Shown here: positions 1,215 to 40,561 of the stretch, in pieces
Position numbering within the stretch: the stretch's first letter is position 1
Layout: each line of letters starts with the position of its first letter
Virus record (IMG/VR): IMGVR_UViG_3300037485_000957
Coordinates: 1 to 53,296 of that record
Direction: 5' to 3' (one strand)
From: a virus
Taxonomy: Duplodnaviria > Caudoviricetes
DNA: 53,296 bases
Notes under the pieces: model-generated
Database searches by the model: none
What the model was told of the DNA's origin: nothing
Seen by the model: the letters and a program-made list of their open reading frames with translations, nothing else
Made by a program: the position numbers and the translations under genes

Positions 1215-2315
1215 TTACAGTTTGAAGTTTGGATTTTGGCGTTGCATTGCACGCTCATATGCTGCATCCTCTTCAGTGATTGTCTTCCCAGACTGCACTT
1301 CTCTTGCGATGCTAGTGTTGTGAGCTTGTACTGCTTTTGCTTCCAGGTTCTCTGCACGTGCACGTCCAATCGTTTTCTTAGAAAGATTGAATAGCTCTTC
1401 GCGATGAATCGCCGTGTCAATGAATCGAACCACATCCTCTACAAGAAGGTCTGATACGCCATTAGCGTCAGGGGCTGTATAGCGAACGAAGTCTGGGTTA
1501 AAGATATCACCTGATCTTTCGATCGCTGACTTCACCTTTGTAGCCCACTCTGAGTTAACAATACGGCCATTGAAACGCTTTCCAATGACATTCTCAATTC
1601 CTGCATGAATCTTTGTCCTTTGACGATCAAGCCACTCCATTTGCATACGCTGTTCTGTGTCGCGCTTGGTCTTGTAGTCTTTCTCAATCGCCTCAAGGGA
1701 AGCATTCGCGTTGCCAGACAACGCCTTCTTCGCTGAACTTACGAGGGATTTTCTTTTTAATGTAGAAGGCTCGTTTACCCATGAATAGACTTCTTCTTCA
1801 ACGGCCTGAGCGAACTCATCGCCCTGTAGCCCTAATTCGGAAGCTTGTCTTTCAAAGTGCATACGTATTAGCGCTTCATCATCCTGTCCGTCAACGGGAG
1901 ACACTGCACCAACCTTCTTAAAGAACCCTCCTACTGAATGAGAATCCCCTTCTGCCATACGGTATTCATTCCACAATTTAACCAATGGATCTCCTGCAAG
2001 TGATTCAAATGAAGCAACCTGCGCCTGTAACGCAGTTATTGTTGTAGTAGCTTCATTTAGTTGTGCTTTCAGTGCCTCCAATGCTGCATCTGGACTAGAG
2101 GTAGATTTATCATTTCCTGTTGAAGGAACTTGTCCAAAATCTACATCATCATCATACGTACCATCATCTGCCGCTTGGGCCGATGACGCTTCAGGTGTTT
2201 CAGTACTGGCCGCTGCTTGTGGTGTTGCATTCGTAGTCGTTTCTACCGTTGCTTCGCCTGCTGCCGCTGCCGTTACTTCTTCTTTTTCAATAGGTTCATT
2301 CAATACTGATTCCAT
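1215..2315 (-). CDS. Probable capsid scaffolding protein
   Basis: 366 aa with an acidic, Ala/Thr-rich disordered N-terminus and a coiled coil; lies between portal and capsid. Confidence 0.65.
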   Translation of the reverse strand: MESVLNEPIEKEEVTAAAAGEATVETTTNATPQAAASTETPEASSAQAADDGTYDDDVDFGQVPSTGNDKSTSSPDAALEALKAQLNEATTTITALQAQVASFESLAGDPLVKLWNEYRMAEGDSHSVGGFFKKVGAVSPVDGQDDEALIRMHFERQASELGLQGDEFAQAVEEEVYSWVNEPSTLKRKSLVSSAKKALSGNANASLEAIEKDYKTKRDTEQRMQMEWLDRQRTKIHAGIENVIGKRFNGRIVNSEWATKVKSAIERSGDIFNPDFVRYTAPDANGVSDLLVEDVVRFIDTAIHREELFNLSKKTIGRARAENLEAKAVQAHNTSIAREVQSGKTITEEDAAYERAMQRQNPNFKL

Positions 2316-2403
2316 ATTAATTGCAAATTTATGTTTGTTTTCCGTTTTATTAAACTATTAATTTAATCAACACTTGCTATCGTGTTGATTATCAGTCCTA
2401 TTA

Positions 2404-4737
2404 TTATTGCTGAGGTGGTTGCCCACCTTGCTGTTGCATCATTTGTTGCATCATTTCCGGAGGCATACCGCCACCTTGCTGCTGCATTTGCTCTTGAGGA
2501 GCGCCTTGAGGTGGCATTCCCTGTTGCTCTGCACCGCCCTGGGCCGAAGCCCCTGACATGAACTGTGCAATCTCTTCTTGGGAATACCCTTGCTTGAGCA
2601 TCTCCTTCGCCATGTTGCCTGTCGTAGCGATCGTCTGCTTAGCCAAGTTACCCTCCATCTCCACTTGCTTAGTCTGAGACTGACCTTGTGCCATAGCCTC
2701 TGTAGACTGCAATCTTGATGCATTAGCCATCATCTCTTGAACACGCTGAATCTCACGTTTCTTAGCAACAGAGTATTTAGCGTAATCCTTAAGCTCACTG
2801 ATGGTTTTAGCATCTTCAACATTAAGCCAGTCAGCAAAGTCGATTTGACCTGTAGCCATCAAGTTATCCAATGCAGAAAGCATTCTTGCCTTACGTGCAG
2901 GATCGATGATGTCGCGAGTGGAAATGCTTAGAAGGAAGTCTGTGTATGTATCATTCTTCAAATCAAGAATACGCTGAACGCCCTCTTCGCCAAGTAGCGA
3001 TTGCCATTTCAACTTATCAGGATTCTTCTGGATGTCATTCTTTACGTATTCAATAGCAAACTGAGCAGCATCAGCAAACAGCTGAAGCACTCCTGTCATT
3101 GTGTACTGGATACTGTTTGATGCTAATCCTGCAGAGTTCTGCTGCGTACGCAGGCCGATGTACCCCGTCTGTGTTCCCATGATTGCTGCAGAGACATTTG
3201 CAATCTCTTTAAGCTCAGCCTTCATGCTGTCTTTGATAGCTAGGTAGTTTTGGATATCTCGCATCAACGAAACATCCTCCTTCTGCATTAGCGGTTCTCT
3301 GTCGGTGTAATCTCCATCCTCTCCAGAGGCCGTAGACATCGTGAATCGTGTCTTGCGTAACTGAGAATAGATTTGTGATGGAGTCATGCCATTCTTGAAC
3401 TTCTTACCGTTTAGCGCGATAATAGTCCCCAAGTCCATTGTGTAGTTCTCTCGTACACGATAGCTAATAGCATCAAGCTCTTTCTGCTTAGGCTTCAGCT
3501 GATCTACCAAACACTGGTTGATACCAATGTATGTATCGGGCTGGAAGCACATGATAGGGAACAGCTTATTCCCTGCTTGGTTAGGATCATCGATAACGTC
3601 ATGAACGCCGAAGTCAACAATGAACATATTGGCTAGGAGTGTGGCCTTACGGATAACCTGTACTGGCGTACCCTTTTTGCCCTTACCGTTCTTTAGCTTG
3701 ATAGCCACCCTGTCGCCATCCTGATCTTTCACTACGCGATACCCAGAGTCTATCGTTGCTTTCCAATACACAGTGATCTCACTCATGTATTGATTGATAG
3801 AATTGAATAGCGTGTAATTGTACAATGCAGCAAGCTGCGTGAAGATTGTGGTATTGGTATATGATCCATTACGAATCTGTGCAATATCCTCGTTGCTCAG
3901 GTACTTACGATACTTGGCAATAGCGGCATCTTTGTGGATGAAGTTAATCTTACCCCTTGATACATCGTATCGGCCGAAGTCATCATCCTTCGCTGACATG
4001 GCGAAGTACAAGTAAGGAGGGACATCCTCAAGACGGCCTTCGTCTGTAACATTCAATATGGCCCGACGACCAATCGTTACATTCATGAACTGGCGAGAGT
4101 AATCCTGCGTGTTCATGTTATTCTCCCGTACGTAATCGAGAATCAATCCAGCGTCATGCTGTAGGTCAGAAGAGAATGACATGAAGATTGTCTTGGCAAT
4201 CTCCTCTTCTGTAGCTGCTGGGTTAGCAGGAGGGACGAACTTAAGCCCCGTTGACTCTTCTATCTGCTCCAGCTGCTTTGAGAACTTACGAGCAACCTGA
4301 ACCATCTTAAGCTTCTTGGTTGCTTCATTCTTCATTTCTGGGTTGACTACATTCACGTGCGGTTCAGCACTTGAAGCGACACCTAGGAACTGACCACGCA
4401 AGAAGTTAACAATCGTGTACGTATCCTTCCCTGGCATGTATGGAGTTGACAAATCCTCAATCTGTCCATCTGATCCTTCTATCTGACCGAGGTACACATT
4501 CGTATTGGCTTGAAGCCCCATAGCATACAAGAAGTTATCTTGTATCTGCGTCACCTCTGAACCACCCACCCCAATCTGAGTCTTGTCATAGTCTCTCGTT
4601 GGGAGTCGGTTGTATGCCCGACAATAGAACAAAGCGCTCAGTCGATAGTAATTCGCATACGTCCCATATCGCTTTAGGATCTGGTCGTTGCTTAATCCTT
4701 GGTCAGGAAGCGTTGCTAATATTGCCGAATCGTACAT
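2404..4737 (-). CDS. Portal protein
   Basis: 777 aa downstream of the terminase, with helical segments and a Gln/Met/Gly/Pro-rich C-terminal tail typical of podovirus-type portals. Confidence 0.75.
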   Translation of the reverse strand: MYDSAILATLPDQGLSNDQILKRYGTYANYYRLSALFYCRAYNRLPTRDYDKTQIGVGGSEVTQIQDNFLYAMGLQANTNVYLGQIEGSDGQIEDLSTPYMPGKDTYTIVNFLRGQFLGVASSAEPHVNVVNPEMKNEATKKLKMVQVARKFSKQLEQIEESTGLKFVPPANPAATEEEIAKTIFMSFSSDLQHDAGLILDYVRENNMNTQDYSRQFMNVTIGRRAILNVTDEGRLEDVPPYLYFAMSAKDDDFGRYDVSRGKINFIHKDAAIAKYRKYLSNEDIAQIRNGSYTNTTIFTQLAALYNYTLFNSINQYMSEITVYWKATIDSGYRVVKDQDGDRVAIKLKNGKGKKGTPVQVIRKATLLANMFIVDFGVHDVIDDPNQAGNKLFPIMCFQPDTYIGINQCLVDQLKPKQKELDAISYRVRENYTMDLGTIIALNGKKFKNGMTPSQIYSQLRKTRFTMSTASGEDGDYTDREPLMQKEDVSLMRDIQNYLAIKDSMKAELKEIANVSAAIMGTQTGYIGLRTQQNSAGLASNSIQYTMTGVLQLFADAAQFAIEYVKNDIQKNPDKLKWQSLLGEEGVQRILDLKNDTYTDFLLSISTRDIIDPARKARMLSALDNLMATGQIDFADWLNVEDAKTISELKDYAKYSVAKKREIQRVQEMMANASRLQSTEAMAQGQSQTKQVEMEGNLAKQTIATTGNMAKEMLKQGYSQEEIAQFMSGASAQGGAEQQGMPPQGAPQEQMQQQGGGMPPEMMQQMMQQQGGQPPQQ

Positions 4738-4930
4738 GTTCTAGTTTCCAGATTTTGAATACGTCACCATTTTGATCTACGACAAGCCAGAACAAGTCGC
4801 ACGTTTGATTGCCGCTCAATAGCGATCCTTGTGGAAATACATTCAACACAAGACACTTCTCCCATATAACCTGACCCTTCTTAAGGCACTCTGCCTCACA
4901 GGGGAAATGTATTTGAGAGAAGTCTATCAT
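4703..4930 (-). CDS. Hypothetical protein
   Basis: 75 aa filling the terminase-portal gap, with a TAAATTTG box (4936-4943, minus) just upstream. Confidence 0.5.
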   Translation of the reverse strand: MIDFSQIHFPCEAECLKKGQVIWEKCLVLNVFPQGSLLSGNQTCDLFWLVVDQNGDVFKIWKLEHVRFGNISNAS

Positions 4931-4953
4931 CGTAGCAAATTTACGTATTTACT

Positions 4954-6882
4954 TTACTTCTTCTGCATAGTAAATAAATGGGAAAAGTCTCCCCCTGGTT
5001 TCGCTGCTCCTCCGTTACCCGTCACCATCACCCTTTCGCCTTTCGCATTTGTAGTGAACGAAACCGACGATGCAGGGAACTTCTCCTCTATCGTTCGCTT
5101 GTGCATGATGGTTCTGTACTCTTCGTGTAACGCTTCGGCCATCGCCATAGCATCCATGAAATCCGTATTCTCAAAAGGGAAGTTGAAGAACTCTGCAAAG
5201 AATCGATCGATCCAGATGTCCTGCATATTACTCTTCACGTAATCGCGTACGAGCAACCTCAACTCCGTTGTGTTCTTATCCTTATTTAGCCCCTTCTCTG
5301 GCCTGGCATTCTTCGCCCTAAACCTCCTAGGACACCATGCCAGCATATCCATGTTCCCGCTATGCTTATATGATGTCTTGAGCGCCCCAATGGAGTTCTT
5401 CTCGACAAGGGCGACAGCGTTGTTGTATAGCTTCTGCAGGTATATAGTTCTCCTTGCTGCATCATCAGCATCATAGGTTCTCTCTGCGTAGTACGCGACA
5501 TATTGATTGGTGTCAAAGCACTTCACTGCTGCGATGTGGTCTGATCCCTTCTCATTGATAGTGGTGAATGGAATCGTATCAATCCCTACTCCATACGTAC
5601 GGCCGATCACAGGAAGCTCAAATATGTAGTACTTCGCGCCTTCTCTCTTTTCGATGAACTTAATCTCCATGTCTCCATCCAGCTTTGGATGTATGTATGC
5701 TGGCTGATCGCACTTGTTGAAGTTCCTATTCTTGACAGCGACATCCACCTCGTGCTTCTGATCCTTATACATCATCACTGTCTCATCTTCCCACCATGAG
5801 TCAGTTGCTATATCAAGAAGCTCATTGATGTCGTTAGGATACTGTAGGCAGTGCTCCATGAAGGCTTTCTTATTAGGAAGCTTCTCTAATATCCTTCTGT
5901 TGTTCAATAGCGCCTCACGCGCCTTTACTCTATCGACGTATCCTTTTGAATCACGTACGTCTGTGTACTTATTATTGACAAGCGATCCATCCTCGTTGTA
6001 CACTGGGATGAATGGATTGAACCATGACGCATCAACAAAGAGAGGAACGATGCCATACGTTGCAGCATTCTGCCACATGTCAAGTGCATTCTTCAATCCC
6101 TTCGCTGTAGCATCAGATAAAGATCCTACGTAGTAAAGACTTCCCTCCTTACGCATAAACTCCCTCACCAATGCTGCTCCTCGGCTTCTCACCTCCTCTA
6201 CGTATGGATGCTTGAATATCTCATCCACAATAACGGCACGCGCTCCTTGGCCTTCTAGCTTACTCGGACTCTTGGCGCTGAATGCCGTCTCCACGCTCTG
6301 TATCGTAGAGAGTAGCCCTGAGTCATTCTGCCCCTTCTCGCGCTTACCGAACTTAACGAACTGCTTATCGCTCTTCTCATCGGGCCACGTACCAATAACG
6401 CCTGGCCGATAGAACTCATCCATCCCATCATAGGATATCTTGAGCTTGTCGGAGAAGTTCATCTTCGTCGTATCGACAGCCTCCGATGTCATAATCACTT
6501 TACATCCTGGATTCCATATCGCGGTCTTGAGTGGTAAGAACCCGTTCATGATGGTTGACTTCCCTGCACCACGCTGAGTAATCCACATACCATCAGCCTT
6601 CTTCTTATCCACCTCAGCAAGCCAAGGGAATATCACATCTTTATCGACAGGGCGCATGTCAGGGGATAAGCGCTCTCCCGTAACCCTGTTCTTTATCGTG
6701 AACTGCGTCAGGTAATAGTAATAGTCACCAGACAACCCATCAAACCCACTGTGCCAACGCTTCTCTTCCCTGATGTAATACTTAAGCTTCTCCCCTTCAT
6801 TCCTAAAGTCAGGCTGTTCGTGCTTCCATATCCCGTGTCTGAATCCCATACTAATTTGTTTCGTTACCGTTTCGTTTGTCAA
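4954..6882 (-). CDS. terL: Terminase large subunit
   Basis: Walker A QRGAGKST, Walker B VIVDE, nuclease motif YGVGID and C-terminal DFMDA. Confidence 0.9.
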   Translation of the reverse strand: MTNETVTKQISMGFRHGIWKHEQPDFRNEGEKLKYYIREEKRWHSGFDGLSGDYYYYLTQFTIKNRVTGERLSPDMRPVDKDVIFPWLAEVDKKKADGMWITQRGAGKSTIMNGFLPLKTAIWNPGCKVIMTSEAVDTTKMNFSDKLKISYDGMDEFYRPGVIGTWPDEKSDKQFVKFGKREKGQNDSGLLSTIQSVETAFSAKSPSKLEGQGARAVIVDEIFKHPYVEEVRSRGAALVREFMRKEGSLYYVGSLSDATAKGLKNALDMWQNAATYGIVPLFVDASWFNPFIPVYNEDGSLVNNKYTDVRDSKGYVDRVKAREALLNNRRILEKLPNKKAFMEHCLQYPNDINELLDIATDSWWEDETVMMYKDQKHEVDVAVKNRNFNKCDQPAYIHPKLDGDMEIKFIEKREGAKYYIFELPVIGRTYGVGIDTIPFTTINEKGSDHIAAVKCFDTNQYVAYYAERTYDADDAARRTIYLQKLYNNAVALVEKNSIGALKTSYKHSGNMDMLAWCPRRFRAKNARPEKGLNKDKNTTELRLLVRDYVKSNMQDIWIDRFFAEFFNFPFENTDFMDAMAMAEALHEEYRTIMHKRTIEEKFPASSVSFTTNAKGERVMVTGNGGAAKPGGDFSHLFTMQKK

Positions 6883-7456
6883 ATCCCTTTCCAGTAATCT
6901 TGACGTATCCCTTATTCTTCATTACAGAGAAAGCATTAATCAAGTCCTTTGGCTTCGATATCTGCTTGAGTGATTGCTTCCTTATCGTTTTCGCAATTTG
7001 CGTATTGCGATTTGAAACCATTATCATCTCCCCCTTGTGATTCTTTCTGCGCTTCTCGATGTACATATCCTTGTACAACCCATACTGCATAAGATCAATC
7101 TCCTTCTCCTCAATGTCGTAATTAAGAAGTAGCTGCATCGGCAAAGAGAAGATCATGGCCATCACGCCAAAGAACAGCAGATCGAATCCCAAATGTGTTC
7201 CTTTGTGTAATCCCCGTATCGTACGTGAGGCACTCTTTACTCCGCTGCTATGCACTCTTGCTTCATACGTACGCTGACTCATGCCCGTGAACGCAAGGAT
7301 GTATCGCAGATTACGAAAGTAATTCATACGATAGAAGTCAAGCATAGAAGATAGCTGCAAAGGTAAAGTGTCCTGTGTGCTGTACTTCCTCCTTATCCTC
7401 TGCTCCAACAGAGTACCGCTTACATCCTTATATACGTCCTTCGATATTATTGTCAT
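6851..7456 (-). CDS. Hypothetical basic protein upstream of terL
   Basis: 201 aa overlapping the terL start; no motif recognised. Confidence 0.55.
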   Translation of the reverse strand: MTIISKDVYKDVSGTLLEQRIRRKYSTQDTLPLQLSSMLDFYRMNYFRNLRYILAFTGMSQRTYEARVHSSGVKSASRTIRGLHKGTHLGFDLLFFGVMAMIFSLPMQLLLNYDIEEKEIDLMQYGLYKDMYIEKRRKNHKGEMIMVSNRNTQIAKTIRKQSLKQISKPKDLINAFSVMKNKGYVKITGKGFDKRNGNETN

Positions 7457-7488
7457 ATTCTAATACAAAAATACTTATTTTTGATGAC

Positions 7489-7788
7489 ATGGATTCTATA
7501 CAAAACGCAGAGCAGGATGCGCAACTGGCCGCATTGAAGAAATTAATACTTTCTCTAAAGCCAGGTAACGGGAAGTCGTTCTATAAAATGAATGTCGAGA
7601 CACTCGAAGTGTCAAGGGTTCATGGCGATGATTACCGAAGCTACGTGTCGGCCCTGTCGGAACGAAAGGAAGATATCGTCCCAAAGCCCAACCACCTATA
7701 CTGCGTTGCTAAGTCACAACTCAAAGCATGCACCCAGTTTGGAAAGATTCTTCACGCACTAACACTTGAGTATGCAGTCAATAACTGA
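7489..7788 (+). CDS. Hypothetical protein
   Basis: Likely starts at MDSIQNAEQ, just after a TATTTTTG box. Confidence 0.5.
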   Translation: MDSIQNAEQDAQLAALKKLILSLKPGNGKSFYKMNVETLEVSRVHGDDYRSYVSALSERKEDIVPKPNHLYCVAKSQLKACTQFGKILHALTLEYAVNN

Positions 7789-7918
7789 AATCCCTCAGTG
7801 GGAACACACTACAGTTACCACTCTCGATGAAAGTGGAGTAATCATCTACGAGTACTACAGAGAATACGATATGTAAATTGTTTTATTTTATTTGTTTATG
7901 CCAGAATAATACCTATTT

Positions 7919-8164
7919 TTGGCACGAACTTATAACATAAATCATATGCAAAATTCTGTTTCTATCATTGGTTTAACCTTTGATATCGCTAGTGTCGGAC
8001 TCGACCAAAGCACCAAATTGTCAAACTTGCTATCTTATAGGAATGATCTCCTCTGTAGCCTTATGGAGGAGACTAGTAAATCAACGCCATGTAAGTCTCT
8101 CATATCGTTATACGCGAATGAGCTTAAGGGTTCTGATTCCATCCTAGAAAAGTTAGTAAAATGA
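7919..8164 (+). CDS. Hypothetical protein
   Basis: ORF with an ATGA overlap into the recombinase start. Confidence 0.5.
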   Translation: MARTYNINHMQNSVSIIGLTFDIASVGLDQSTKLSNLLSYRNDLLCSLMEETSKSTPCKSLISLYANELKGSDSILEKLVK

Positions 8165-8856
8165 ACGTAGGACTTTATTTAAGAGTGAGCACCGACGAAC
8201 AGCAGTCGGGCCTAAAGGTGTACATACAGCAAGCTAAAGACTTCTGCGAGAGATACGGCCACACATACACCGACCTATTCATTGACGAAGACGTATCGGG
8301 AGACAAAGAGCTACAGAAGCGCCCTGCAGGATCGAAGATATTACAGGCTCTTGAGTCAGGTAAGATACAGGGAATTGTTTCGCCAAACGTAACTCGTCTA
8401 TTCCGTAACTTGCGTAATGGTGTAAATACGATACATGAATTCGAGAATAAGAATTGGAAGATGTTCGTTTCAGATGGGTATGGGCTTCCTGTTGACATAT
8501 CATCAATCATGGGGTTCTCCATGTTCGTAGATCAACTCAAGTATGCACAGATAGAACGCATGCAGATTGCAGAACGTACCAAGAACGGAATGACCTATCG
8601 CCGTAACAACGGGAAGGCCACCTCTCACACCCCATACGGATACTATAGAATCGAAGACGATAAGACGCTTTATCATGATGATGATGAAATGGCTTATGTC
8701 AACGTAATGGTAGACCTGCACAACGAAGGAATGCCATACCTTGGCATCGCTAAGGAGCTAAACGAAGCTTCTGTCACCGCAAAGAAAGGAGGCTCATGGA
8801 CTGCCAAGACTGTTCGTGGCGTAATCCAATACCAACAATCCATAATGAAAAAATGA
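8161..8856 (+). CDS. Serine recombinase (resolvase domain plus short recombinase/HTH domain)
   Basis: Catalytic YLRVSTDEQ, DEDVSG, RLFRN, then ERTKNG, PYGY and IAKELN...GGSW...TVRGV. Confidence 0.9.
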   Translation: MNVGLYLRVSTDEQQSGLKVYIQQAKDFCERYGHTYTDLFIDEDVSGDKELQKRPAGSKILQALESGKIQGIVSPNVTRLFRNLRNGVNTIHEFENKNWKMFVSDGYGLPVDISSIMGFSMFVDQLKYAQIERMQIAERTKNGMTYRRNNGKATSHTPYGYYRIEDDKTLYHDDDEMAYVNVMVDLHNEGMPYLGIAKELNEASVTAKKGGSWTAKTVRGVIQYQQSIMKK

Positions 8857-8857
8857 T

Positions 8858-9094
8858 ATGATGATAAACGTACCCATACTATATACCGAGGTTTCCAAAA
8901 GGAAAGAGTTCTCTCCTGCAATTCGTAATGGAGTGATTAAGATTGACAACAAAGAATACATGTACGTCAGATCGAAAGATGCCCTGATCGTCAAGGATTA
9001 CATAGCGAAATACAAAGAGCGAAAGGACGAAGGAGAAGAATGGGAAGAGTTTGTGGAGTTTGCCAATAACAATAGCAATGGAGTCAAGATATAA
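8858..9094 (+). CDS. Hypothetical protein
   Basis: 78-aa ORF in operon context. Confidence 0.55.
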   Translation: MMINVPILYTEVSKRKEFSPAIRNGVIKIDNKEYMYVRSKDALIVKDYIAKYKERKDEGEEWEEFVEFANNNSNGVKI

Positions 9095-29971: not shown

Positions 29972-30204
29972 AAGCAGTAGCGATAGCCTGCATATCAGTT
30001 GTATTGACAGCTGGATTTTTAATAGCAATAGATAAGACACTTCCTTACCCATCCACGCCAAGAAAAAAATATCCGATAGAGGTTGTGACTGGCTATGGAC
30101 AGATTGCATTAACATTTGAATGCGACAGCATGAAGGGCGATACGTTCTACAAGGATGGCAATAGCATTGTAGTTAAGAACATTTTAAACATAAAATTCAA
30201 ATGA
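29968..30204 (+). CDS. Small membrane-anchored protein
   Basis: N-terminal hydrophobic segment. Confidence 0.55.
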   Translation: MKAVAIACISVVLTAGFLIAIDKTLPYPSTPRKKYPIEVVTGYGQIALTFECDSMKGDTFYKDGNSIVVKNILNIKFK

Positions 30205-35289: not shown

Positions 35290-35562
35290 TTAAACGTACT
35301 CAAAATTTACCCACTGCTCCATCACAAATTGGAAGGAGTTCTCCATATCAGCATACACAGTACGTATGTAGTTGATGAACGACCTAGCCTCATCCTCTGA
35401 TATACCTGCGTCAATGGTGTAGTATCCGTACGTGTTTGGTTCTTTGTCTCCCGTGTTGATATGGAAGCTCTGCTGCGTCTCGTTGTATTCTAAACGTACG
35501 TTCATGTCATGTAGTATTAAATTACTCTCCCTCTCTCCTCGTTCGTCTTCTTCAGATGGCAT
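35290..35562 (-). CDS. Hypothetical protein
   Basis: ORF in operon context; start uncertain. Confidence 0.55.
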   Translation of the reverse strand: MPSEEDERGERESNLILHDMNVRLEYNETQQSFHINTGDKEPNTYGYYTIDAGISEDEARSFINYIRTVYADMENSFQFVMEQWVNFEYV

Positions 35563-35939
35563 GCTTTACACAGCACCTGAAACGCCTTAGGATCTTCTGG
35601 TGTCAAGCGCTCAATGAACATAGCTACGTCATCGTACCCTCTTAGTGAACCACAGGGAATGATATGATCCACCTCAACGCTTGTCCTTGCGTACCAGTTC
35701 GTGCATATAGCACATTGGTATTCAAACTTTATCTTGCGATTTAAACTGCGTGAGTTGCGCTTAGAGCTATCAAGTGCCATCTTCATCGGTGTCCACCATC
35801 TGAATGCACTACGAAGGGCGCTACGTAGCTTCTGAAAGTACTGCGCCTCTGTCATCGTTCCCCCGTTTCTCGTACGTGGAACTCTCGTGGCTTGCTTTTT
35901 CTTTACAACGCCGCCTCTTCTTCTTAATACTATAGCCAT
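35517..35939 (-). CDS. HNH endonuclease
   Basis: YQCAIC...VEVDHIIPCG...QVLCKACHLKKT. Confidence 0.85.
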   Translation of the reverse strand: MAIVLRRRGGVVKKKQATRVPRTRNGGTMTEAQYFQKLRSALRSAFRWWTPMKMALDSSKRNSRSLNRKIKFEYQCAICTNWYARTSVEVDHIIPCGSLRGYDDVAMFIERLTPEDPKAFQVLCKACHLKKTNEERGRVI

Positions 35940-35986
35940 CGCAACTCAAGATTTTTTCAAATTTACGCTCTGGAGCGCTTTCTTTA

Positions 35987-36346
35987 TTATTCAAATGATT
36001 CATTTCCTTTAGCAATGTAGTAAAACAATTCAAGCGAATAAGGAACGCTGTAAATGCTGGCCTTTGGATACGCTCTGTCGATCTCCTCTATTGTATTCAT
36101 CACCTCAATGCGAGGCGCTGTATTAGGTAAGTCTACACCCATATGCTCAGCCATCTGCTTTTGGATAAGGATGGTTAGCTTACCCAAGGGCACTTCATGG
36201 GAGTCAGCAAAATACGATGCTCTTACATGGCCCTTCTCTGCCCACCACCTACGGGCAGCGTTCTCTAGGCATATCTCTTCCATCTTTACCTCAACACGCT
36301 TCCTATCTTGATAGGTGTCGTTTATCATCTTATCCTCTAATGTCAT
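35987..36346 (-). CDS. Hypothetical protein
   Basis: Coupled ORF. Confidence 0.6.
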   Translation of the reverse strand: MTLEDKMINDTYQDRKRVEVKMEEICLENAARRWWAEKGHVRASYFADSHEVPLGKLTILIQKQMAEHMGVDLPNTAPRIEVMNTIEEIDRAYPKASIYSVPYSLELFYYIAKGNESFE

Positions 36347-36756
36347 AGCGATAGGATTTTAATAGACAACCCATCCCCTCCTGATGTGTAGAATGCTGGC
36401 TCTATAACACACCCCTCGTCATCAATGACAAGCATACCCTTCTGTGATTGCGTATAGGCAACCTTCGCTTGCTCCTGCACTTCCTTAGTCTTATCGGCCA
36501 GCTCCACTACACGTGGGCAGTTCTTATAATCCCACTTGCCAGGATTGGATTTCTTCGTTACCTCAGCGCCATTGCATGCAAATGACTTCTCGGAATACTT
36601 ACTAGCCTCTACAAGTGCTTCATTGAACACTTGCTTCATCGAAGCCTCAAGCACTTTCTCTATGCGCTTAAAGTCAACGTATGCGCTTAACGCATTAGCA
36701 TCACCATCTTCTACTGCTGCAGCCATCGCCGCAATTTGATCTACAATGTTTTTCAT
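36343..36756 (-). CDS. Hypothetical phage protein
   Basis: 137 aa with a helical N-terminus. Confidence 0.7.
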   Translation of the reverse strand: MKNIVDQIAAMAAAVEDGDANALSAYVDFKRIEKVLEASMKQVFNEALVEASKYSEKSFACNGAEVTKKSNPGKWDYKNCPRVVELADKTKEVQEQAKVAYTQSQKGMLVIDDEGCVIEPAFYTSGGDGLSIKILSL

Positions 36757-36780
36757 GTTTGTTTTGTTTTAAGTTATTTG

Positions 36781-36826
36781 TCGCTGCATTAGCGAAAGAA
36801 TGTTACGGGTATAAGTAGTTATAAGC
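36781..36826 (+). other. Candidate attI-like primary site of the cassette array
   Basis: Core GTTATAAGC at 36818-36826 has no matching attC left half upstream; small TCGCT/AGCGA hairpin at 36781-36795. Confidence 0.4.
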
Positions 36827-37463
36827 AAGCTGCTACGTTCCTGCTCCGAATGAAAGTTCCCCATTGTTCAGCCATAGCTTTTGCCACCCCACTAAAAGTT
36901 TTTGAGCTTTCCTTTTGGCTTATGCTTACAGAATGGTATTTCTGTCCTCGTTTTTTCCCTCCAGTATTGCTCGGTAAATACGGCTTATAGTTGCTTTGAA
37001 TATCAGTCGGCTTTAATAGTGGCAAATTTTTCAACCACAATAAAGTTCGTTTACTGTATTCATGTCCATATTCGTATGGCTGTATCGCTTGGCTATGTTT
37101 TGGCAATTCAACTACTTTTAATGGTGTTGGGTTTTCAACTGCAATAAATTCAATCGGTGCATTAAGTAGTTCCAAAAACATAGCTTTCGCTTCCATTGCT
37201 TTTGAGTATCTATCTTGGCACAAATTACCTGCCGTTGGGTACATCCATCTTGCTCCAGCCTTACTCATATAAGTACAAGGCGGGTGTGCAATCATCATAT
37301 CGTATTTGCCACTATAAGCCTCTTTTACTGCATCGCCTACAATATGCCATTCGGGTTTATTACCGCTACATTCTTGTAGGTCGCAACTATAAGCCTCAAA
37401 TCCTAATTCTCGGAAAGCTCTGCAAACTTCTTGGCTCTCCTCACAAGCTATTAATATTTTCAT
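36819..37463 (-). CDS. Compact DNA cytosine-5 methyltransferase-like protein
   Basis: MKILIACEESQ, YSCDL, catalytic IAHPPCTY and AVENP motifs. Confidence 0.8.
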   Translation of the reverse strand: MKILIACEESQEVCRAFRELGFEAYSCDLQECSGNKPEWHIVGDAVKEAYSGKYDMMIAHPPCTYMSKAGARWMYPTAGNLCQDRYSKAMEAKAMFLELLNAPIEFIAVENPTPLKVVELPKHSQAIQPYEYGHEYSKRTLLWLKNLPLLKPTDIQSNYKPYLPSNTGGKKRGQKYHSVSISQKESSKTFSGVAKAMAEQWGTFIRSRNVAACL

Positions 37464-37548
37464 TTCAATTTAAGTTTTTAGTTAATAATCCGCAGCCAGC
37501 TTATAACAGCGGTTTGGCGGCATTAAAACGACCGCCAAGCCGCAACCG
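36819..37548 (+). mobile_element. Integron-like gene cassette 1 (methyltransferase cargo, antisense)
   Basis: Start core GTTATAAGC is the exact reverse complement of GCTTATAAC (37499-37507), which opens its attC-like site. Confidence 0.75.
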
Positions 37549-37556
37549 TTATACGC
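37499..37556 (+). repeat. attC-like site A
   Basis: GCTTATAAC-a-GCGGTTTGGCGG-loop-CCGCCAAGCCGC-aacc-GTTATACGC. Confidence 0.75.
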
Positions 37557-37594
37557 AAGCACTACATTCGTTCTCCGATTTAACTTTTGTGGAA

Positions 37595-38079
37595 GTAAAA
37601 AAGAAAATAAAAATTTACCCACGCTTTTAATAAGGTTTAATTACACTTTTGTTTAATCCGTATTCAATAGCATAATTAATACACTCCATCAGTGATGTTA
37701 TTGAGTTTGTTTTTGTTTTGTGTCCGTAATATTTCTCATCGTCATAATACAACTGCAAATCATTTTTGAACTTTGGAAAGAAGTATTTGCCACACAAATC
37801 AATTTCGGCAATCCACTCCGTTTCGTATTCAGGTAACCCTATTGTTAATCCATTTACCAATCCTTCTGTTTCAAAATGATTATCTAAAATGTCAGTTGTA
37901 TATATTTTAACTAACGCATTGCCTTCAAATCTTCCTTCGCAAAGTTCAATTAAATATTGCGTTGAAATATCGTTTTCAGATTTGAAGTAAACACCAAATT
38001 TTAAGTATTCGTTTGGTGTGTCTTTTGGTTTAAAATTTGTTTCCATAATTCCCTCCTAAATTTTTATTTTCTTTTTTAC
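37595..38079. repeat. Perfect 23-bp inverted repeat enclosing the cassette 2 gene
   Basis: GTAAAAAAGAAAATAAAAATTTA (37595-37617) and TAAATTTTTATTTTCTTTTTTAC (38057-38079). Confidence 0.9.
37627..38046 (-). CDS. Hypothetical protein (cassette cargo)
   Basis: 139 aa, AT-rich, GGAGGG just upstream of the ATG. Confidence 0.7.
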   Translation of the reverse strand: METNFKPKDTPNEYLKFGVYFKSENDISTQYLIELCEGRFEGNALVKIYTTDILDNHFETEGLVNGLTIGLPEYETEWIAEIDLCGKYFFPKFKNDLQLYYDDEKYYGHKTKTNSITSLMECINYAIEYGLNKSVIKPY

Positions 38080-38118
38080 CGTGTTTCAATTAAACATTCT
38101 ACTAAATCAACCGTGCCA

Positions 38119-38217
38119 GCGTATAACACGTGCTATAAGCAAGTTTGCCAATAACTTTTTCGGTAACTTGAACATTTTTGCAAGGCAAACCTGCTCATAG
38201 CACCATACGTTAGCAGC
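38119..38217 (+). repeat. attC-like site B
   Basis: GCGTATAAC-ac-GTGCTATAAGCAAGTTTGCC...GGCAAACCTGCTCATAGCAC-catac-GTTAGCAGC; arms pair at 18/20. Confidence 0.75.
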
Positions 38218-38221
38218 AATT

Positions 38222-38545
38222 TCACGATAGCCTCAAAGCCCTGAACCAATTCAATAATCGATTCTTTTCTCCAAGTGAATAACCCCACCTTCCTGTAATC
38301 AAAAAAGTAATAGGTAGGATCAGGATCATTAACAACATTGTCAGTGTTGCAAACGGCAGTGTTAATCTCATCCAGAAATTAACAGGCGTTTGTTCTTCGC
38401 AATAAAACTCAATGTTTAATTCAATAAACCTATCGCACAACTCCTCGCTACCAATATTCGAAAGCTCTGGAAATACTTTTTTGAAGTTCGGCATGTAATT
38501 AGCATAACCGTTTGACCAAGTCCTTCTTAATTTCCTGTACATCAT
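38222..38545 (-). CDS. Hypothetical membrane protein (cargo of incomplete cassette 3)
   Basis: 107 aa with one TM segment; its stop lies just beyond GTTAGCAGC. Confidence 0.65.
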   Translation of the reverse strand: MMYRKLRRTWSNGYANYMPNFKKVFPELSNIGSEELCDRFIELNIEFYCEEQTPVNFWMRLTLPFATLTMLLMILILPITFLITGRWGYSLGEKNRLLNWFRALRLS

Positions 38546-38586
38546 GATTTCGTTTCAAATTAAGTTTGGGGTGTGGGTGGCTGGAG

Positions 38587-39117
38587 TCAGGCTACAACCG
38601 TGTAGCCTAAACACCTTTTTAAATCATTGACAATATCTCGGTAGTGGTGCATTTCGCTTTCATTCGGAAACAATGATTGCAAAAAAGCAACATTTTCTTG
38701 CTGATAAACACCATACATATTTGACCTAGTTTCGTAACTGTACTGCGCATTTGCAAATCTATCACAAAGCTTTACATACTTTGCCCACATCGTTTTTCTG
38801 ATACCATCGTAATAAGCATCGTTTGCCCTTTCTTTTCGGTTCTTACCTTTTTCGTTGGTTACAGCGTAAACAATGTTCGCAACGGATGCTCCAGCAACTT
38901 GTTTAATATCGTTGTAGGTCATTCTACAATCTTCAATAGTATCGTGCAACCAACAAGCGTCTAATACATCGCCTTGCGCTTGCTCAGGGATGCAGTCAAT
39001 ATACTTTTGTGCAATCATTGCTACCATTGATAAATGTACCGAATAAGGTTTCCCATCGTATAAATGGTTTGTGTTGTTGTGTGCTTCGATTGCGAAGCTG
39101 ATTATTTCACTGTTCAT
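38587..39117 (-). CDS. HD-domain phosphohydrolase (SpoT/Mesh1-like small alarmone hydrolase)
   Basis: FAIEAH...YDGKPYSVHL...WLHDTIEDC...VKLCDRFAN. Confidence 0.8.
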   Translation of the reverse strand: MNSEIISFAIEAHNNTNHLYDGKPYSVHLSMVAMIAQKYIDCIPEQAQGDVLDACWLHDTIEDCRMTYNDIKQVAGASVANIVYAVTNEKGKNRKERANDAYYDGIRKTMWAKYVKLCDRFANAQYSYETRSNMYGVYQQENVAFLQSLFPNESEMHHYRDIVNDLKRCLGYTVVA

Positions 39118-39182
39118 ATTAAAAACTTCAATCTCGTTTCAACTCTATTTTCACTCTTACGTGACTCATCGCCTTTGAATTT

Positions 39183-39210
39183 AAAAGGGAGGAGATTACG
39201 CCCCTCCCTT
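39183..39210 (-). terminator. Intrinsic terminator after the 247-aa gene
   Basis: Minus-strand AAGGGAGG...CCTCCCTTTT. Confidence 0.6.
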
Positions 39211-39219
39211 ATGTTGTGA

Positions 39220-39963
39220 TTAAATCATATCCTCAGCGCCGTCGAAGAAGTCAGCAGGGAGATCGTCTGTATTAGGCAGCTCCGCTTTCTTCTTTGATGC
39301 TGGACGCTTCTCTTCTTCGAAGGAAGGGACAGGTACTTCTTTGCGTTCGTTAGTAAGAGGATTTACAGCAGGGATCGATTGGATACCAGCATCCATCATA
39401 GAGGCGAACTCAGGTGATTTCTTAATCTCCTCTTGCAACCACTCAGGTAGCGTCTTAAACACTTCCTCGTCATGCATAAGTGGAGAATACGATACCAATG
39501 GATTGATTGGCAGTGGAGCAGGAAAGCCCTTAGGGATAGGCATGAACGCTTTGATGTTAGCGTATGTCTTTGTCCCGTCCTTCGATGGCTCATGCACCAC
39601 GTTAATCATACACGCTTTACCAAGCAGGTTACGGAAGTCATAAGAAGACGCTTCTTTATCGGAGGCGAACGCCTTACCAGCAATACCTTCAATCATCTTG
39701 CGTAGTCCTGCCTTCTCGTTCATAGTACGAGTGTACTTACATCCCAGTACCATAGGCTTCTCAGGATCGCCTTCTTTGAATACTCGCATTTCTGTCGAGC
39801 TTTCAAATGTGAAACGCATTGTGTCTTTAAGCCCAGGGAATTGTCCCCCTTGCTCCTGATGACCAACGTGGATCATAGAATACAATACTGCGATTTGTGC
39901 TCCTGCGGGGAACAGCTCTTTGTCGAATGATGCACCAGACGTTGGTGCTGTGAATGGATTCAT
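39220..39963 (-). CDS. Probable single-stranded DNA-binding / replication protein
   Basis: LLGKACMINVVH...YANI motif and an acidic tail (TDDLPADFFDGAEDMI). Confidence 0.6.
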   Translation of the reverse strand: MNPFTAPTSGASFDKELFPAGAQIAVLYSMIHVGHQEQGGQFPGLKDTMRFTFESSTEMRVFKEGDPEKPMVLGCKYTRTMNEKAGLRKMIEGIAGKAFASDKEASSYDFRNLLGKACMINVVHEPSKDGTKTYANIKAFMPIPKGFPAPLPINPLVSYSPLMHDEEVFKTLPEWLQEEIKKSPEFASMMDAGIQSIPAVNPLTNERKEVPVPSFEEEKRPASKKKAELPNTDDLPADFFDGAEDMI

Positions 39964-39974
39964 AGTTATTGGTT

Positions 39975-40250
39975 TTAGTTGTTAAATTGTTCGCTGTAAA
40001 GCACCTCTTGATTACCGGCCAGTTCTGTAATGATGTCATTGTGGACATCGAAGAACTCAGCTGTTGAGATGGCTGTGTATTGTGGGCTATCGCTCAGTAG
40101 CGTATGTATGATGGTTTTGATAGTTTCGAACTCATCAACCACTCTGATGCCGCGCTGGCCCTTCTGGCAATAGACGCTTATCATTCTCTTGGAGGTGTAG
40201 TCAACACGGAAGTACTCTTCCTCCGAGCTAAGCTTGAATGTGAATATCAT
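39975..40250 (-). CDS. Hypothetical protein
   Basis: ORF in operon context. Confidence 0.6.
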   Translation of the reverse strand: MIFTFKLSSEEEYFRVDYTSKRMISVYCQKGQRGIRVVDEFETIKTIIHTLLSDSPQYTAISTAEFFDVHNDIITELAGNQEVLYSEQFNN

Positions 40251-40561
40251 AGTATGTCCTCCAGTATTAAGTCAACAAAAAACTCCTGACTGCCACACGC
40301 TTTAGCATGCAAGGCGTAACGCTTTATCTTATCAATGCGCGTCTCTTCAATAGGCTTCCTTTTCAAGTAAAGGGGCTGCTCCTGAGGAGTCTCGGTAATA
40401 GAGAATCTGTTTGACGAGTATCTATTCCCATTTACTAGAAAGTAAGAGCCGTATAACTCCCCTTTGTATAGATTGCCATAAACAAGATCAGTGTCCTGAT
40501 CGCTTATGCAATACATTTCAATGTCACGCTTTGCCATATATAGTCTGTTTGTTTGATGCAA
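40247..40561 (-). CDS. Hypothetical protein
   Basis: Likely start MAKRDIE (40537), after a TATATTTG box at 40559-40566. Confidence 0.55.
   Translation of the reverse strand: MHQTNRLYMAKRDIEMYCISDQDTDLVYGNLYKGELYGSYFLVNGNRYSSNRFSITETPQEQPLYLKRKPIEETRIDKIKRYALHAKACGSQEFFVDLILEDIL

What the first reader, a model, noticed from the sequence alone, without database searches (positions are those of the whole stretch)
36781..39117. Phage-borne integron-like cassette array with antisense cargo and no integrase
Seen: two attC-like palindromes (37499-37556, 38119-38217) separate single AT-rich genes inside the replication region. The core sites follow the integron cassette rule. Cassette 1 starts GTTATAAGC (36818) and its attC opens with the exact complement GCTTATAAC. 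Cassette 2 starts GTTATACGC (37548) and its attC opens with GCGTATAAC. Each left core therefore matches the start of its own cassette rather than the right core beside it, as expected for circles inserted at G|TT. Both arm mismatches in site B are A-C on the top strand and G-T on the bottom strand, which favours bottom-strand folding (site A's single mismatch goes the other way). Known: in classical integrons cargo usually reads toward its attC and an IntI tyrosine recombinase lies beside attI. Here the cargo reads away from its attC, co-directional with the phage minus-strand genes, and the window has no tyrosine recombinase. Inference: the phage runs its own cassette system, probably using a host Bacteroidota integrase, to swap accessory or counter-defence genes at a fixed locus. 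Caveat: spacers and extrahelical bases do not match textbook attC exactly.
Basis: partly seen in the sequence, partly recalled or inferred. Interest (0 to 1): 0.93.

Follow-up and report, generated by a model that had tools for sequence, protein, structure and literature searches.

The report
Phage gene-cassette array without integrase
This phage carries a short piece of an integron-like gene-cassette array (hairpin recombination sites bracketing single accessory genes) that turns out to belong to a large, apparently undescribed family of such arrays in Flavobacterium-type phages and their bacterial hosts.

Summary
Sites A (37499-37556) and B (38119-38217) are imperfect hairpins of attC architecture, and each unit's first 9 nt are the exact reverse complement of the core that opens its own hairpin. 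The same site family forms 10-14-unit arrays in five complete, integrase-free virulent Flavobacterium phage genomes. There the rule holds in 45 of 53 consecutive pairs, unit content is shuffled, and breakpoints fall at AAC|GTTA. A covariance model built from phage sites alone finds only these two sites in the window. It also finds co-oriented arrays downstream of a 375-aa Xer/IntI-like recombinase in Flavobacterium-family chromosomes, and arrays abutting a 267-276-aa recombinase in 37 of 80 viral contigs. Those viral arrays have the window's inverted cargo polarity. Cargo does read away from its hairpin. The window's array is not a fixed locus, however. The 2.4-kb low-GC block 36762-39174 is missing from three relatives and from one metagenome contig. 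It looks like a fragment of a phage-type array: an attI-like junction, two intact units and two cargo genes without sites. Phage clusters of attC sites lacking an integrase are already in print, including a homologous Polaribacter phage site that IntI1 recombines. The wider system is not in the papers I could search. No recombination was observed directly.

The parts
36762..39174 (.). Accessory low-GC block holding the whole feature. Related phages lack it.
   Evidence: L007 aligns to window 40610-39203 and 36785-35511 with only 82 nt (a tRNA-like gene) between. L009 and L010 likewise skip it. A 5.3-kb contig of run X4 joins 36761 to 39175. GC is 30-40% against 45-47% in the flanks.
36795..36818 (+). 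attI-like left junction, ..GGGTATAAGTA|G, in front of the first unit.
   Evidence: It resembles the junction ..TAyATATAGTA|GTTA that lies 65-92 nt from the recombinase start codon in 12 of 21 viral arrays. This is resemblance only.
36819..37548 (+). Unit 1 (730 nt): TTATAAGC, gene, own core GCTTATAAC, hairpin A, G.
   Evidence: The first 9 nt are the exact reverse complement of 37499-37507. blastn to 37 Flavobacterium phage records covers only window 36815-37515.
36819..37463 (-). 214-aa DNA methyltransferase-family gene, the cargo of unit 1.
   Evidence: phrog_757 'DNA methyltransferase', E 4.7e-50. 38-40% aa identity to the gene annotated as DNA methyltransferase in the Flavobacterium phages. 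No Pfam hit and no PDB hit.
37499..37556 (+). Site A: R'' GCTTATAAC, A, 12-nt arm, 11-nt loop, 12-nt arm, AACC, R' GTTATACGC.
   Evidence: R1 gives 46.4 bits, E 5.7e-6. The 41-nt core is identical in 14 sites from 14 loci, although 13 of these were ascertained by a pattern taken from it. Polaribacter phage P12002L site 30003-30061 has the same 11-nt loop.
37549..38209 (+). Unit 2 (661 nt): TTATACGC, gene, own core GCGTATAAC, hairpin B, G.
   Evidence: Own-core complement is 9/9. In other metagenomes the context changes at 37545/37548 (loose ends).
37627..38046 (-). 139-aa gene of unknown function, the cargo of unit 2.
   Evidence: No Pfam or PHROG hit. A 35%-identical homologue (E 4e-11) lies between two sites of a recombinase-linked viral array, L135 4613-4966.
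37595..37617 (.). Left arm of a perfect 23-nt inverted repeat around the 139-aa gene (right arm 38057-38079).
   Evidence: I1, 100% complementary. A 26-kb contig of run X2 matches 37548-37625 and resumes at 38058, so the interior is absent or replaced.
38057..38079 (.). Right arm of the 23-nt inverted repeat.
   Evidence: I1.
38119..38217 (+). Site B: R'' GCGTATAAC, 20-nt arms with two A.C mispairs on the + strand, 34-nt loop, R' GTTAGCAGC.
   Evidence: R1 gives 39.9 bits, E 9.5e-5; (I6). 38122-38212 is deep in runs X2, X4 and X7, where the neighbouring genes are not.
38222..38545 (-). 107-aa membrane-like gene. Probably a third cargo gene whose own hairpin is missing.
   Evidence: phrog_36118, E 5.9e-35. 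It starts after R' GTTAGCAGC, but no GCTGCTAAC core or R1 hit follows.
38587..39117 (-). 176-aa HD-domain phosphohydrolase. Probably a fourth cargo gene without a recognisable site.
   Evidence: Pfam HD_4, 6.8e-9; phrog_990, 2.2e-27. A 59%-identical homologue (E 8e-59) lies between two sites of a recombinase-linked viral array, L149 1493-1936.

Best explanation
Window 36762-39174 is an accessory block that is a fragment of a phage-type, integron-like gene-cassette array. It consists of an attI-like junction, two intact units (a methyltransferase gene and a 139-aa gene), and two further cargo genes that have lost recognisable sites.

Each intact unit is one gene plus a hairpin site of attC architecture: R'' xxxxxTAAC, imperfect stem, loop, stem, R' G|TTAxxxxx.

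Proposed mechanism (inferred, not observed):
- A tyrosine recombinase cuts at G|TT of R' in the folded or paired site.
- A unit leaves as a circle in which its two half-cores pair perfectly. It re-enters at an attI-like or another hairpin site.
- This would explain why every unit starts with the complement of its own R''.

Unlike classical integrons, the gene lies inverted in the unit. Its 5' end abuts, and often enters, its own hairpin, and transcription runs toward the attI side.

The window has no recombinase. The cognate enzyme is most likely the 267-276-aa Xer-like recombinase found beside arrays of the same polarity in other viral contigs, supplied in trans. A related host enzyme is the alternative.

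In this phage lineage the block is probably a passively acquired piece rather than a working platform.
For: 1. Site structure. In 34 sites of 128-141 nt, RNAalifold predicts 15 pairs, and 14 of them show compensatory changes.

2. Own-core rule in five complete Flavobacterium phage genomes. 9/9 matches were seen in 12 of 13, 7 of 9, 8 of 9, 7 of 9 and 11 of 13 consecutive pairs. Non-redundant set: 27 of 42 perfect in the five variable bases, against 1 of 76 adjacent pairs and at most 5 of 42 in 2000 shuffles.

3. Mobility.
- Lillamy9-1 has an extra 342-bp unit exactly at GTTATAAGCAAG compared with snork6-2.
- The methyltransferase unit is followed by 4 different units in 5 phages.
- Three-way junction comparisons switch within AAC|GTTA.
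- Metagenome contigs diverge at 37545/37548.

4. Polarity. The hairpin on the gene's 5' side is kept in 32 of 38 informative pairs; the one on its 3' side in 3 of 38.

5. Recombinase linkage.
- Host chromosomes: 16 of 21 loci with a 375-aa recombinase orthologue have R1 sites. All 39 sites are downstream and co-oriented. An exact own-start lies 40-144 nt after the stop codon in 10 of 16.
- Viral contigs: 37 of 80 recombinase loci have R1 sites. All 143 are on the opposite strand. An own-start lies 65-92 nt from the ATG in 12 of 21 loci, and cargo is antisense in 77 of 87 units.

6. Homologues of the window's 139-aa and HD genes are units in such complete viral arrays.

7. Qi et al. 2023 report that IntI1 recombined an attC of Polaribacter phage P12002L with attI1 (PMC9892861, section 3.4 read). 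That phage has a site with the architecture and the 11-nt loop of site A.
Against: - No recombination product was seen. All runs laid were assembled contigs, which cannot show circles.
- Three relatives and one metagenome contig lack the whole block, and its outer ends (36761/39175) are not at GTT cores. The block itself therefore moved by some other route.
- Two of the four genes have no site.
- Some hairpin bodies occur with different left-hand genes, for example L005 5350 against L022/L025. Exchange inside hairpins by homology, or at R'', therefore also happens.
- The recombinases lack a match to the middle of the IntI model and score below its cut-off: 192, 145 and 140 bits against 265.
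- Stem mispairs do not favour one strand: 54 G.T against 89 A.C on the + strand.
- I could not tell which of the two P12002L sites Qi et al. tested successfully. Figures and supplements are not held.
- R1 did not detect the P12002L site.
Confidence: 0.78

Rival explanations
1. The hairpins are conserved regulatory elements (terminators or 5' leaders). They shuffle genes through ordinary homologous recombination between similar copies, as the promoter-stem-loop (PeSL) cassettes of T4-type phages do. No dedicated recombinase is involved.
For: Hairpin bodies fall into sequence families shared by different units; an identical 41-nt core occurs in 14 sites. One hairpin family occurs with different left-hand genes. 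The hairpin sits 5' of its gene and often contains the start codon. The virulent phages that carry 10-14 units have no tyrosine recombinase (0 of 5). Arbiol et al. 2010 (PMC2839356, abstract read) show such shuffling and mini-circles in T4-type phages.
Against: Homology-driven exchange does not explain why each unit's first 9 nt complement its own R'' when the variable bases differ between units (27 of 42 against 1 of 76). It does not explain the fixed spacing of the first unit from a recombinase gene in host and viral loci. Nor does it explain the strict strand relation of all 39 and all 143 sites to the recombinase.
Confidence: 0.12
2. In this particular phage the array is an inert relic. 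The 2.4-kb block was picked up once by illegitimate or homologous recombination with another phage, and the sites no longer do anything here.
For: The block is absent from three relatives and one metagenome contig. Its ends are not at cores. Two of the four genes lack sites. There is no recombinase in the window.
Against: Both intact sites keep perfect own-core complementarity and score as full-length model matches. The window is only 64% complete. A recombinase could also act in trans. This reading is compatible with the best explanation for what the sites are; it differs only on present activity.
Confidence: 0.4
3. The units move as single-stranded DNA through a hairpin-recognising HUH enzyme (IS200/IS605 TnpA or a REP-associated transposase) rather than through a tyrosine recombinase.
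For: The sites are conserved hairpins with short conserved flanking motifs, and covariation shows selection on a single-strand fold.
Against: I ran no search for HUH families, so there is no evidence either way on their presence. There is one hairpin per unit rather than two subterminal ones. The enzyme that is consistently positioned next to arrays is a tyrosine recombinase.
Confidence: 0.03

Closest known systems
Clusters of attC sites lacking an integrase (CALIN) in virulent phages (Qi et al. 2023, Front Microbiol, PMC9892861), in particular Polaribacter phage P12002L
   Same: An integrase-less run of attC-type hairpins separating single genes in a virulent phage of a Flavobacteriaceae host, with methyltransferase cargo. 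P12002L site 30003-30061 has the same layout and the same 11-nt loop as window site A, and its unit starts with the complement of its own R''. The paper reports IntI1-mediated recombination of one P12002L site.
   Different: The paper reports two sites in that phage, called in 'divergent directions'. It does not describe the 10-14-unit arrays, the own-core rule, the consistent inverted cargo or the linked small recombinases.
Classical integrons (IntI, attI, attC cassettes; class 1, Vibrio superintegron)
   Same: The R''-L''-loop-L'-R' imperfect palindrome with AAC...GTT triplets. Variable length (58-204 nt) and sequence with a conserved fold. The unit starts with the complement of its own R''. 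Arrays begin next to a tyrosine recombinase gene. Content is shuffled. A group II intron reverse transcriptase lies beside sites in one host genome; that such introns associate with attC sites is from the abstract of PMC7923331 seen in a search listing.
   Different: The recombinases are 267-276 aa (viral) or 375 aa (host). Their best match is an XerA/integron-integrase model, and they fall below the IntI model's cut-off with its middle part unmatched. In phage arrays cargo is antisense and co-directional with the recombinase. In host arrays the recombinase is co-oriented with the cassettes instead of divergent. In place of the textbook extrahelical bases (recalled) there are position-conserved T.G and A.C mispairs and an asymmetric 1-nt against 3-5-nt spacer.
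PeSL mobile regulatory cassettes of T4-type phages (Arbiol et al. 2010, PMC2839356; Comeau et al. 2014, PMC4122927, seen in listing only)
   Same: Stem-loop elements lie 5' of small accessory genes in hyperplastic regions of virulent phages. They are associated with gain, loss and replacement of single genes.
   Different: PeSL exchange is homologous recombination between promoter-plus-terminator motifs. Here there is a crossover core, an own-core complement rule and a linked recombinase. I did not test promoter content of the hairpins.

Membership tests
Integron (sensu IntegronFinder: IntI + attI + attC cassettes) | An integron integrase: a tyrosine recombinase with the IntI-specific extra domain that scores above the IntI model's cut-off | tested here: not met
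   None in the window (PF00589). Linked recombinases elsewhere score 192 bits (host) and 145 and 140 bits (viral) on TIGR02249, against a cut-off of 265. They match in two stretches that leave the middle of the model unmatched. That this middle is the IntI-specific domain is recalled, not tested.
Integron (sensu IntegronFinder: IntI + attI + attC cassettes) | attC sites: imperfect palindrome R''(..AAC)-L''-loop-L'-R'(GTT..) with conserved structure and variable sequence and length | tested here: met
   14 of 15 stem pairs show compensatory change across 34 sites. Lengths range from 58 to 204 nt.
Integron (sensu IntegronFinder: IntI + attI + attC cassettes) | Crossover at G|TT of R', so that each cassette begins with the complement of its own R'' | tested here: met
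   Window 2 of 2. Non-redundant set 27 of 42 perfect, against 1 of 76 adjacent pairs. Junctions switch within AAC|GTTA. The exact phosphodiester bond cannot be resolved from sequence.
Integron (sensu IntegronFinder: IntI + attI + attC cassettes) | Cargo reads toward its attC and is expressed from a promoter at the attI/intI end | tested here: not met
   The window's genes are antisense to site polarity. The same holds in 77 of 87 units of recombinase-linked viral arrays. Host-chromosome arrays do meet this feature (35 of 36). Promoters were not tested.
Integron (sensu IntegronFinder: IntI + attI + attC cassettes) | Detection by the standard attC covariance model or HattCI | not testable with these tools
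   IntegronFinder and HattCI are not available. Rfam 15 gave no attC-type match in 36500-39300. Qi et al. detected two sites in P12002L with those tools.
CALIN (cluster of attC sites lacking an integrase) | At least 2 attC sites within a few kb and no integrase nearby | tested here: met
   Two sites 620 nt apart. No tyrosine recombinase in the 53-kb window. This holds only if these sites are accepted as attC.
PeSL-type regulatory cassette | A strong early promoter joined to a terminator stem-loop, with exchange by homology | not tested
   No promoter model for this host group was available. The own-core rule argues against homology alone.

The most novel reading that the evidence does not exclude
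A previously unrecognised lineage of integron-like elements is widespread in Flavobacterium-family bacteria and their phages.

It uses short Xer-like recombinases without the IntI signature and hairpin sites of about 60-140 nt. It comes in two mirror-image builds:
- a host build: recombinase, then attI, then sense cargo;
- a phage build: antisense cargo running into attI and then the recombinase.

Virulent phages that lack the enzyme still keep arrays of 10-14 units, about 18% of a 38-kb genome. These arrays are rich in DNA methyltransferases, and variation in methyltransferase content was reported to track plating efficiency on alternative hosts. The arrays would then be a shared exchange for counter-defence genes, serviced in trans. 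The window holds a stray fragment of one.
Probability: 0.55. Interest if true: 0.9.

Novelty: new variant of a known kind. Interest (0 to 1): 0.8.

Why it matters
The papers I read treat integrons as nearly absent from Bacteroidota. The IntegronFinder 2.0 paper names one complete integron, in Salinibacter. A 2024 preprint lists Bacteroidota among clades 'previously found without any integrons'.

Here a model built from phage sites alone hits 101 of 151 sampled genomes of a Flavobacterium-containing family. The arrays it finds are tied to a recombinase in a strict geometry.

If this is confirmed:
- It extends cassette-based gene capture to a major aquatic and host-associated phylum.
- It shows that virulent phages maintain large cassette arrays.
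- It offers a natural experiment in which cargo orientation is inverted relative to the recombination site.
- It gives a concrete mechanism for the rapid turnover of phage methyltransferases that Nilsson et al. linked to host range.
- It shows that standard integron detectors miss a whole lineage.

Tried and rejected
- **Chance palindromes:** rejected.
- **Canonical cargo orientation:** Which hairpin travels with which gene rejects this. So does the fact that R'' and L'' lie inside the 5' coding end of several genes.
- **Host IntI:** a TIGR02249 search over 301 genomes at E<=1e-40 gave 0 hits. This is uninformative. Six-frame matches to this model split into two weaker stretches, and no control genome rang.
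- **Close relatives of the host recombinase in viral contigs:** none with a single-protein query. An alignment query succeeded.
- **Host of the window phage:** a tblastn of its DnaB-type helicase against isolated phages gave only about 32% identity to unrelated phages. The host is not established. 'Bacteroidota' rests only on cassette and site homology.
- **Rfam:** nothing relevant.
- **Read evidence for 730-bp or 661-bp circles:** not obtainable, because all four runs laid are assembled contigs. One X4 contig places a site-A-like hairpin in front of a unit-1 start (37538 to 36818 with 10 other letters between). That is another array context, not a circle. The X7 joint 37483 to 38105 has only 21 letters on its short side and was not used.
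- **Exact-pattern scan of 185,579 genomes:** 14 hits, with real arrays only on small contigs of three metagenome-assembled genomes. This first suggested the sites were phage-only. The covariance model overturned that.
- **My hairpin parser:** it needed TAAC/GTTA and a fixed arm geometry. It missed weak sites and produced many false hits at loose thresholds. Only thresholded results are used.
- **R1 model:** it was built from sites that this parser chose.
- **Not done:** no structure prediction, complex prediction or large protein search.


Full report
**1. What is in the window**

All genes between 32.8 and 41.5 kb lie on the minus strand. Within 36818-38217 there are two imperfect hairpins, site A (37499-37556) and site B (38119-38217).

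- Each opens with a 9-mer ending in TAAC and closes with a 9-mer starting with GTTA.
- The 9-mer that starts each gene-bearing unit (36818 GTTATAAGC; 37548 GTTATACGC) is the exact reverse complement of the 9-mer that opens that unit's own hairpin (37499 GCTTATAAC; 38119 GCGTATAAC). The two 9-mers of a single hairpin match less well (8/9 and 6/9).
Site A has one T.G on the + strand and site B has two A.C.
- The cargo is a 214-aa methyltransferase-family protein (phrog_757, E 4.7e-50) and a 139-aa protein with no family. Next come a 107-aa protein (phrog_36118) and an HD-domain phosphohydrolase (Pfam HD_4; phrog_990).
- The window is a 53,296-nt virus record rated 64% complete, and it has no tyrosine recombinase.

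**2. The same sites form long arrays in isolated virulent phages**

- blastn of 35500-40300 against isolated phages matched only window 36815-37515, which is unit 1. The matches were 37 Flavobacterium phage records at 78-80% identity.
- In lillamy9-1 the whole minus-strand early block (2037-8961, about 18% of the genome) is an array of 14 such hairpins. Mumin6-1, hattifnatt9-1 and snusmum6-1 have 10 each, and filifjonk9-1 has 14.
- Own-core complementarity is 9/9 in 12 of 13, 7 of 9, 8 of 9, 7 of 9 and 11 of 13 consecutive pairs (45 of 53). The two cores of one hairpin share 4-9 of 9 bases, reaching 9 only where neighbouring units carry the same core.
- I merged these arrays with those from 15 IMG/VR loci and removed duplicates. 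27 of 42 own pairs are perfect in the five variable bases, against 1 of 76 adjacent pairs and at most 5 of 42 in 2000 partner shuffles.
- The imperfect cases include places where my parser probably missed a hairpin.
- None of the five complete phage genomes encodes a tyrosine recombinase (0 of 5; all 14 control genomes rang).

**3. The fold is under selection**

- An alignment of 34 sites of 128-141 nt gives 15 predicted stem pairs, and 14 of them show compensatory double changes.
- Mispairs are position-specific. There is a T.G near the stem base (21 of 34 sequences) and two A.C higher up on the + strand.
- Overall, 61 unique sites show 54 G.T and 89 A.C on the + strand, so neither strand is clearly the folding one.
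- The spacer is asymmetric: 1 nt after R'' and 3-5 nt (usually ending in AAC) before R'.
- In many sites of about 135 nt the gene's start codon lies in the loop, so R'' and the 5' arm are coding.

**4. The units move, and the gene goes with the hairpin on its 5' side**

- Snork6-2 and lillamy9-1 differ by one 342-bp unit inserted at GTTATAAGCAAG.
- The methyltransferase unit is followed by four different units in five phages. A PF06006-annotated gene with its 85-nt hairpin is ninth in the lillamy9-1 array and second in the hattifnatt9-1 array.
- Three-way comparisons show identity switching within the shared AAC|GTTA.
- I took pairs of the same gene (>=80% DNA identity) whose far neighbour differs. 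The 5'-side hairpin is conserved in 32 of 38 pairs and the 3'-side hairpin in 3 of 38. These pairs are not independent.
- A looser, protein-level version gives 20 of 69 against 2 of 43.
- There are exceptions. One hairpin family occurs with two different left-hand genes, so some exchange also happens within hairpins or at R''.

**5. Where the enzyme is**

I built a covariance model (R1) from the phage sites alone.

Host side:
- R1 hits 101 of 151 sampled genomes of the family of G003, a metagenome-assembled genome titled 'uncultured Flavobacterium sp.'. Scores reach 100 bits, and hits are often clustered on large chromosomal contigs.
- In these arrays the own-core rule holds; L066, for example, has eight consecutive 9/9 pairs.
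- In one complete 4.04-Mb chromosome, a 375-aa tyrosine recombinase ends 40 nt before the exact own-start of the first unit. Its scores are Pfam Phage_integrase 1.7e-39; NCBIfam NF040815 'XerA/integron integrase' 232 bits, above the 220 cut-off; and TIGR02249 192 bits, below the 265 cut-off.
- I fetched 21 of the 33 matches with >=54% identity (30 genomes). 16 have R1 hits, and all 39 hits are downstream of the recombinase and co-oriented with it. Of the 5 without hits, 2 have no downstream DNA and 2 have only about 2 kb.
- An exact own-start lies 40-144 nt after the stop codon in 10 of the 16. The longest ORF of each unit is on the recombinase's strand in 35 of 36 units. The one exception is a group II intron reverse transcriptase.

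Viral side:
- An alignment of 16 host recombinases retrieved 80 IMG/VR loci with Xer-like recombinases.
- 37 of these loci (my count of the table) carry R1 sites. All 143 sites lie on the strand opposite to the recombinase, and nearly all sit just upstream of it.
- In 21 loci analysed, the first unit's own-start lies 65-92 nt from the recombinase ATG in 12. The own-core rule gives 62 pairs at 9/9 and 9 at 8/9 out of 93. The longest ORF is antisense to site polarity in 77 of 87 units. This is the window's polarity, with cargo co-directional with the recombinase.
- These recombinases are 267-276 aa (NF040815 176-188 bits; TIGR02249 140-145 bits).
- One such contig carries phage RNA ligase, phosphoesterase and polynucleotide-kinase families next to the recombinase.
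- Homologues of the window's 139-aa gene (35% identity) and HD gene (59% identity) are units in two such arrays.
- The junction before the first unit has a consensus ..TAyATATAGTA|GTTA. The window reads GGGTATAAGTA|GTTA.

**6. The locus in this phage lineage**

- Three related IMG/VR contigs (about 69-90% DNA identity in the flanks) lack window 36786-39202 entirely. One has a tRNA-like gene there.
- A 5.3-kb contig in run X4, from another study, joins 36761 to 39175.
- In unrelated freshwater and wastewater runs, unit 1 and hairpins A and B are deeply covered at >=90% identity, but the 139-aa, 107-aa and HD genes are not. Contexts diverge at 37545/37548 and at 38122/38220.
- The block is thus a mosaic insert whose own ends are not cassette cores. 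Its last two genes have no recognisable site.
- I read it as a fragment of a phage-type array acquired by another route. Whether its two intact units are still mobilised here is open.

**7. Relation to what is known**

- Qi et al. 2023 (PMC9892861; abstract, section 3.4 and passages read) screened 10,705 phage genomes with IntegronFinder and HattCI. They reported 17 integrase-less attC clusters. One is in Polaribacter phage P12002L, with methyltransferase cargo and sites 'in divergent directions'. One P12002L site recombined with attI1 under IntI1.
- P12002L site 30003-30061 shares site A's architecture and loop. The kind is therefore published.
- That paper's main text does not mention Flavobacterium, and I could not see its supplements.
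- Nilsson et al. 2020 (PMC7077304; passages read) described the Flavobacterium phages without mentioning hairpins, palindromes or integrons (0 occurrences). They did link methyltransferase content to plating efficiency.
- The IntegronFinder 2.0 paper names one complete integron in Bacteroidetes, in Salinibacter.
- Six full-text searches found no description of these arrays or their recombinases. Subscription journals are outside that library.
- The closest phage analogue by behaviour is the PeSL cassette of T4-type phages (PMC2839356, abstract read). It works by homology and does not predict the own-core rule.

**8. Verdict**

It is wrong about a fixed locus in this phage, and probably wrong about the enzyme being a classical host IntI.
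- The finding itself is a new member of a published kind.
- The family it led to is not described in the papers I could search. Its features are Xer-like recombinases, two mirror-image builds, and long arrays in virulent phages. It deserves experimental testing.
- All mechanistic steps (folding, cut position, circles, action in trans) are inferred from sequence patterns. None was observed.

Noticed in passing
window 37595-37617 and 38057-38079: A perfect 23-nt AT-rich inverted repeat brackets the 139-aa gene. That gene is preceded by a GGAGG-type ribosome-binding motif, unlike its neighbours. A 26-kb contig of run X2 keeps both outer flanks, but its interior is absent or replaced. This suggests a second, nested level of module exchange.
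   Followed up: partly
L007 1412-1501 (the empty-site equivalent of window 36786-39202): ARAGORN calls a 90-nt tRNA-like gene of undetermined anticodon exactly where the window has the 2.4-kb block. The intergenic spot is therefore a general hot spot for insertions.
   Followed up: no
L062 13564-14880(-), L069 7170-8486(-), L070 4750-6066(-) (one host chromosome, G097): Three copies of a 438-aa group II intron reverse transcriptase/maturase (RVT_1 6e-37, GIIM 6e-15) each lie about 490 nt from an R1 site whose R'' position reads ACACACA.. instead of ..AAC. This is reminiscent of attC-targeting group II introns.
   Followed up: partly
window 36818-36921 and 37377-37515, against L001-L005: The two ends of the methyltransferase unit are 74-84% identical at DNA level to the Flavobacterium phage unit, but the proteins are only 38-40% identical. 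The first ~35 nt of unit 2 (37548-37590) resemble the start of unit 1. The unit ends appear to be conserved or exchanged separately from the gene body.
   Followed up: partly
L004 4094-4233, 8346-8485 and other ~135-nt sites (alignment A1): In this size class the gene's ATG lies inside the hairpin loop, so R'' and the 5' arm encode the first ~17-20 residues. The narrow length mode (128-141 nt in 41 of 70 sites) is unexplained.
   Followed up: partly
L064 1392-3779, L069 47-1147 (host arrays and flanks): Host-array cargo and neighbours include a NACHT/STAND NTPase and a weak SIR2-like hit, along with glycosyltransferases and oxidoreductases. Some units may be defence genes.
   Followed up: no
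window 38569-38600 and 39172-39207: A short GC-rich hairpin (AGGCTACA..TGTAGCCT) lies inside the 3' coding end of the HD gene. A terminator-like hairpin (AAGGGAGG..CCTCCCTT) spans the block's right end (39174). Neither matches R1.
   Followed up: no
window 35517-35939 (-): A 140-aa ORF about 0.8 kb from the block gives weak HNH-endonuclease hits, below Pfam's cut-offs.
   Followed up: no
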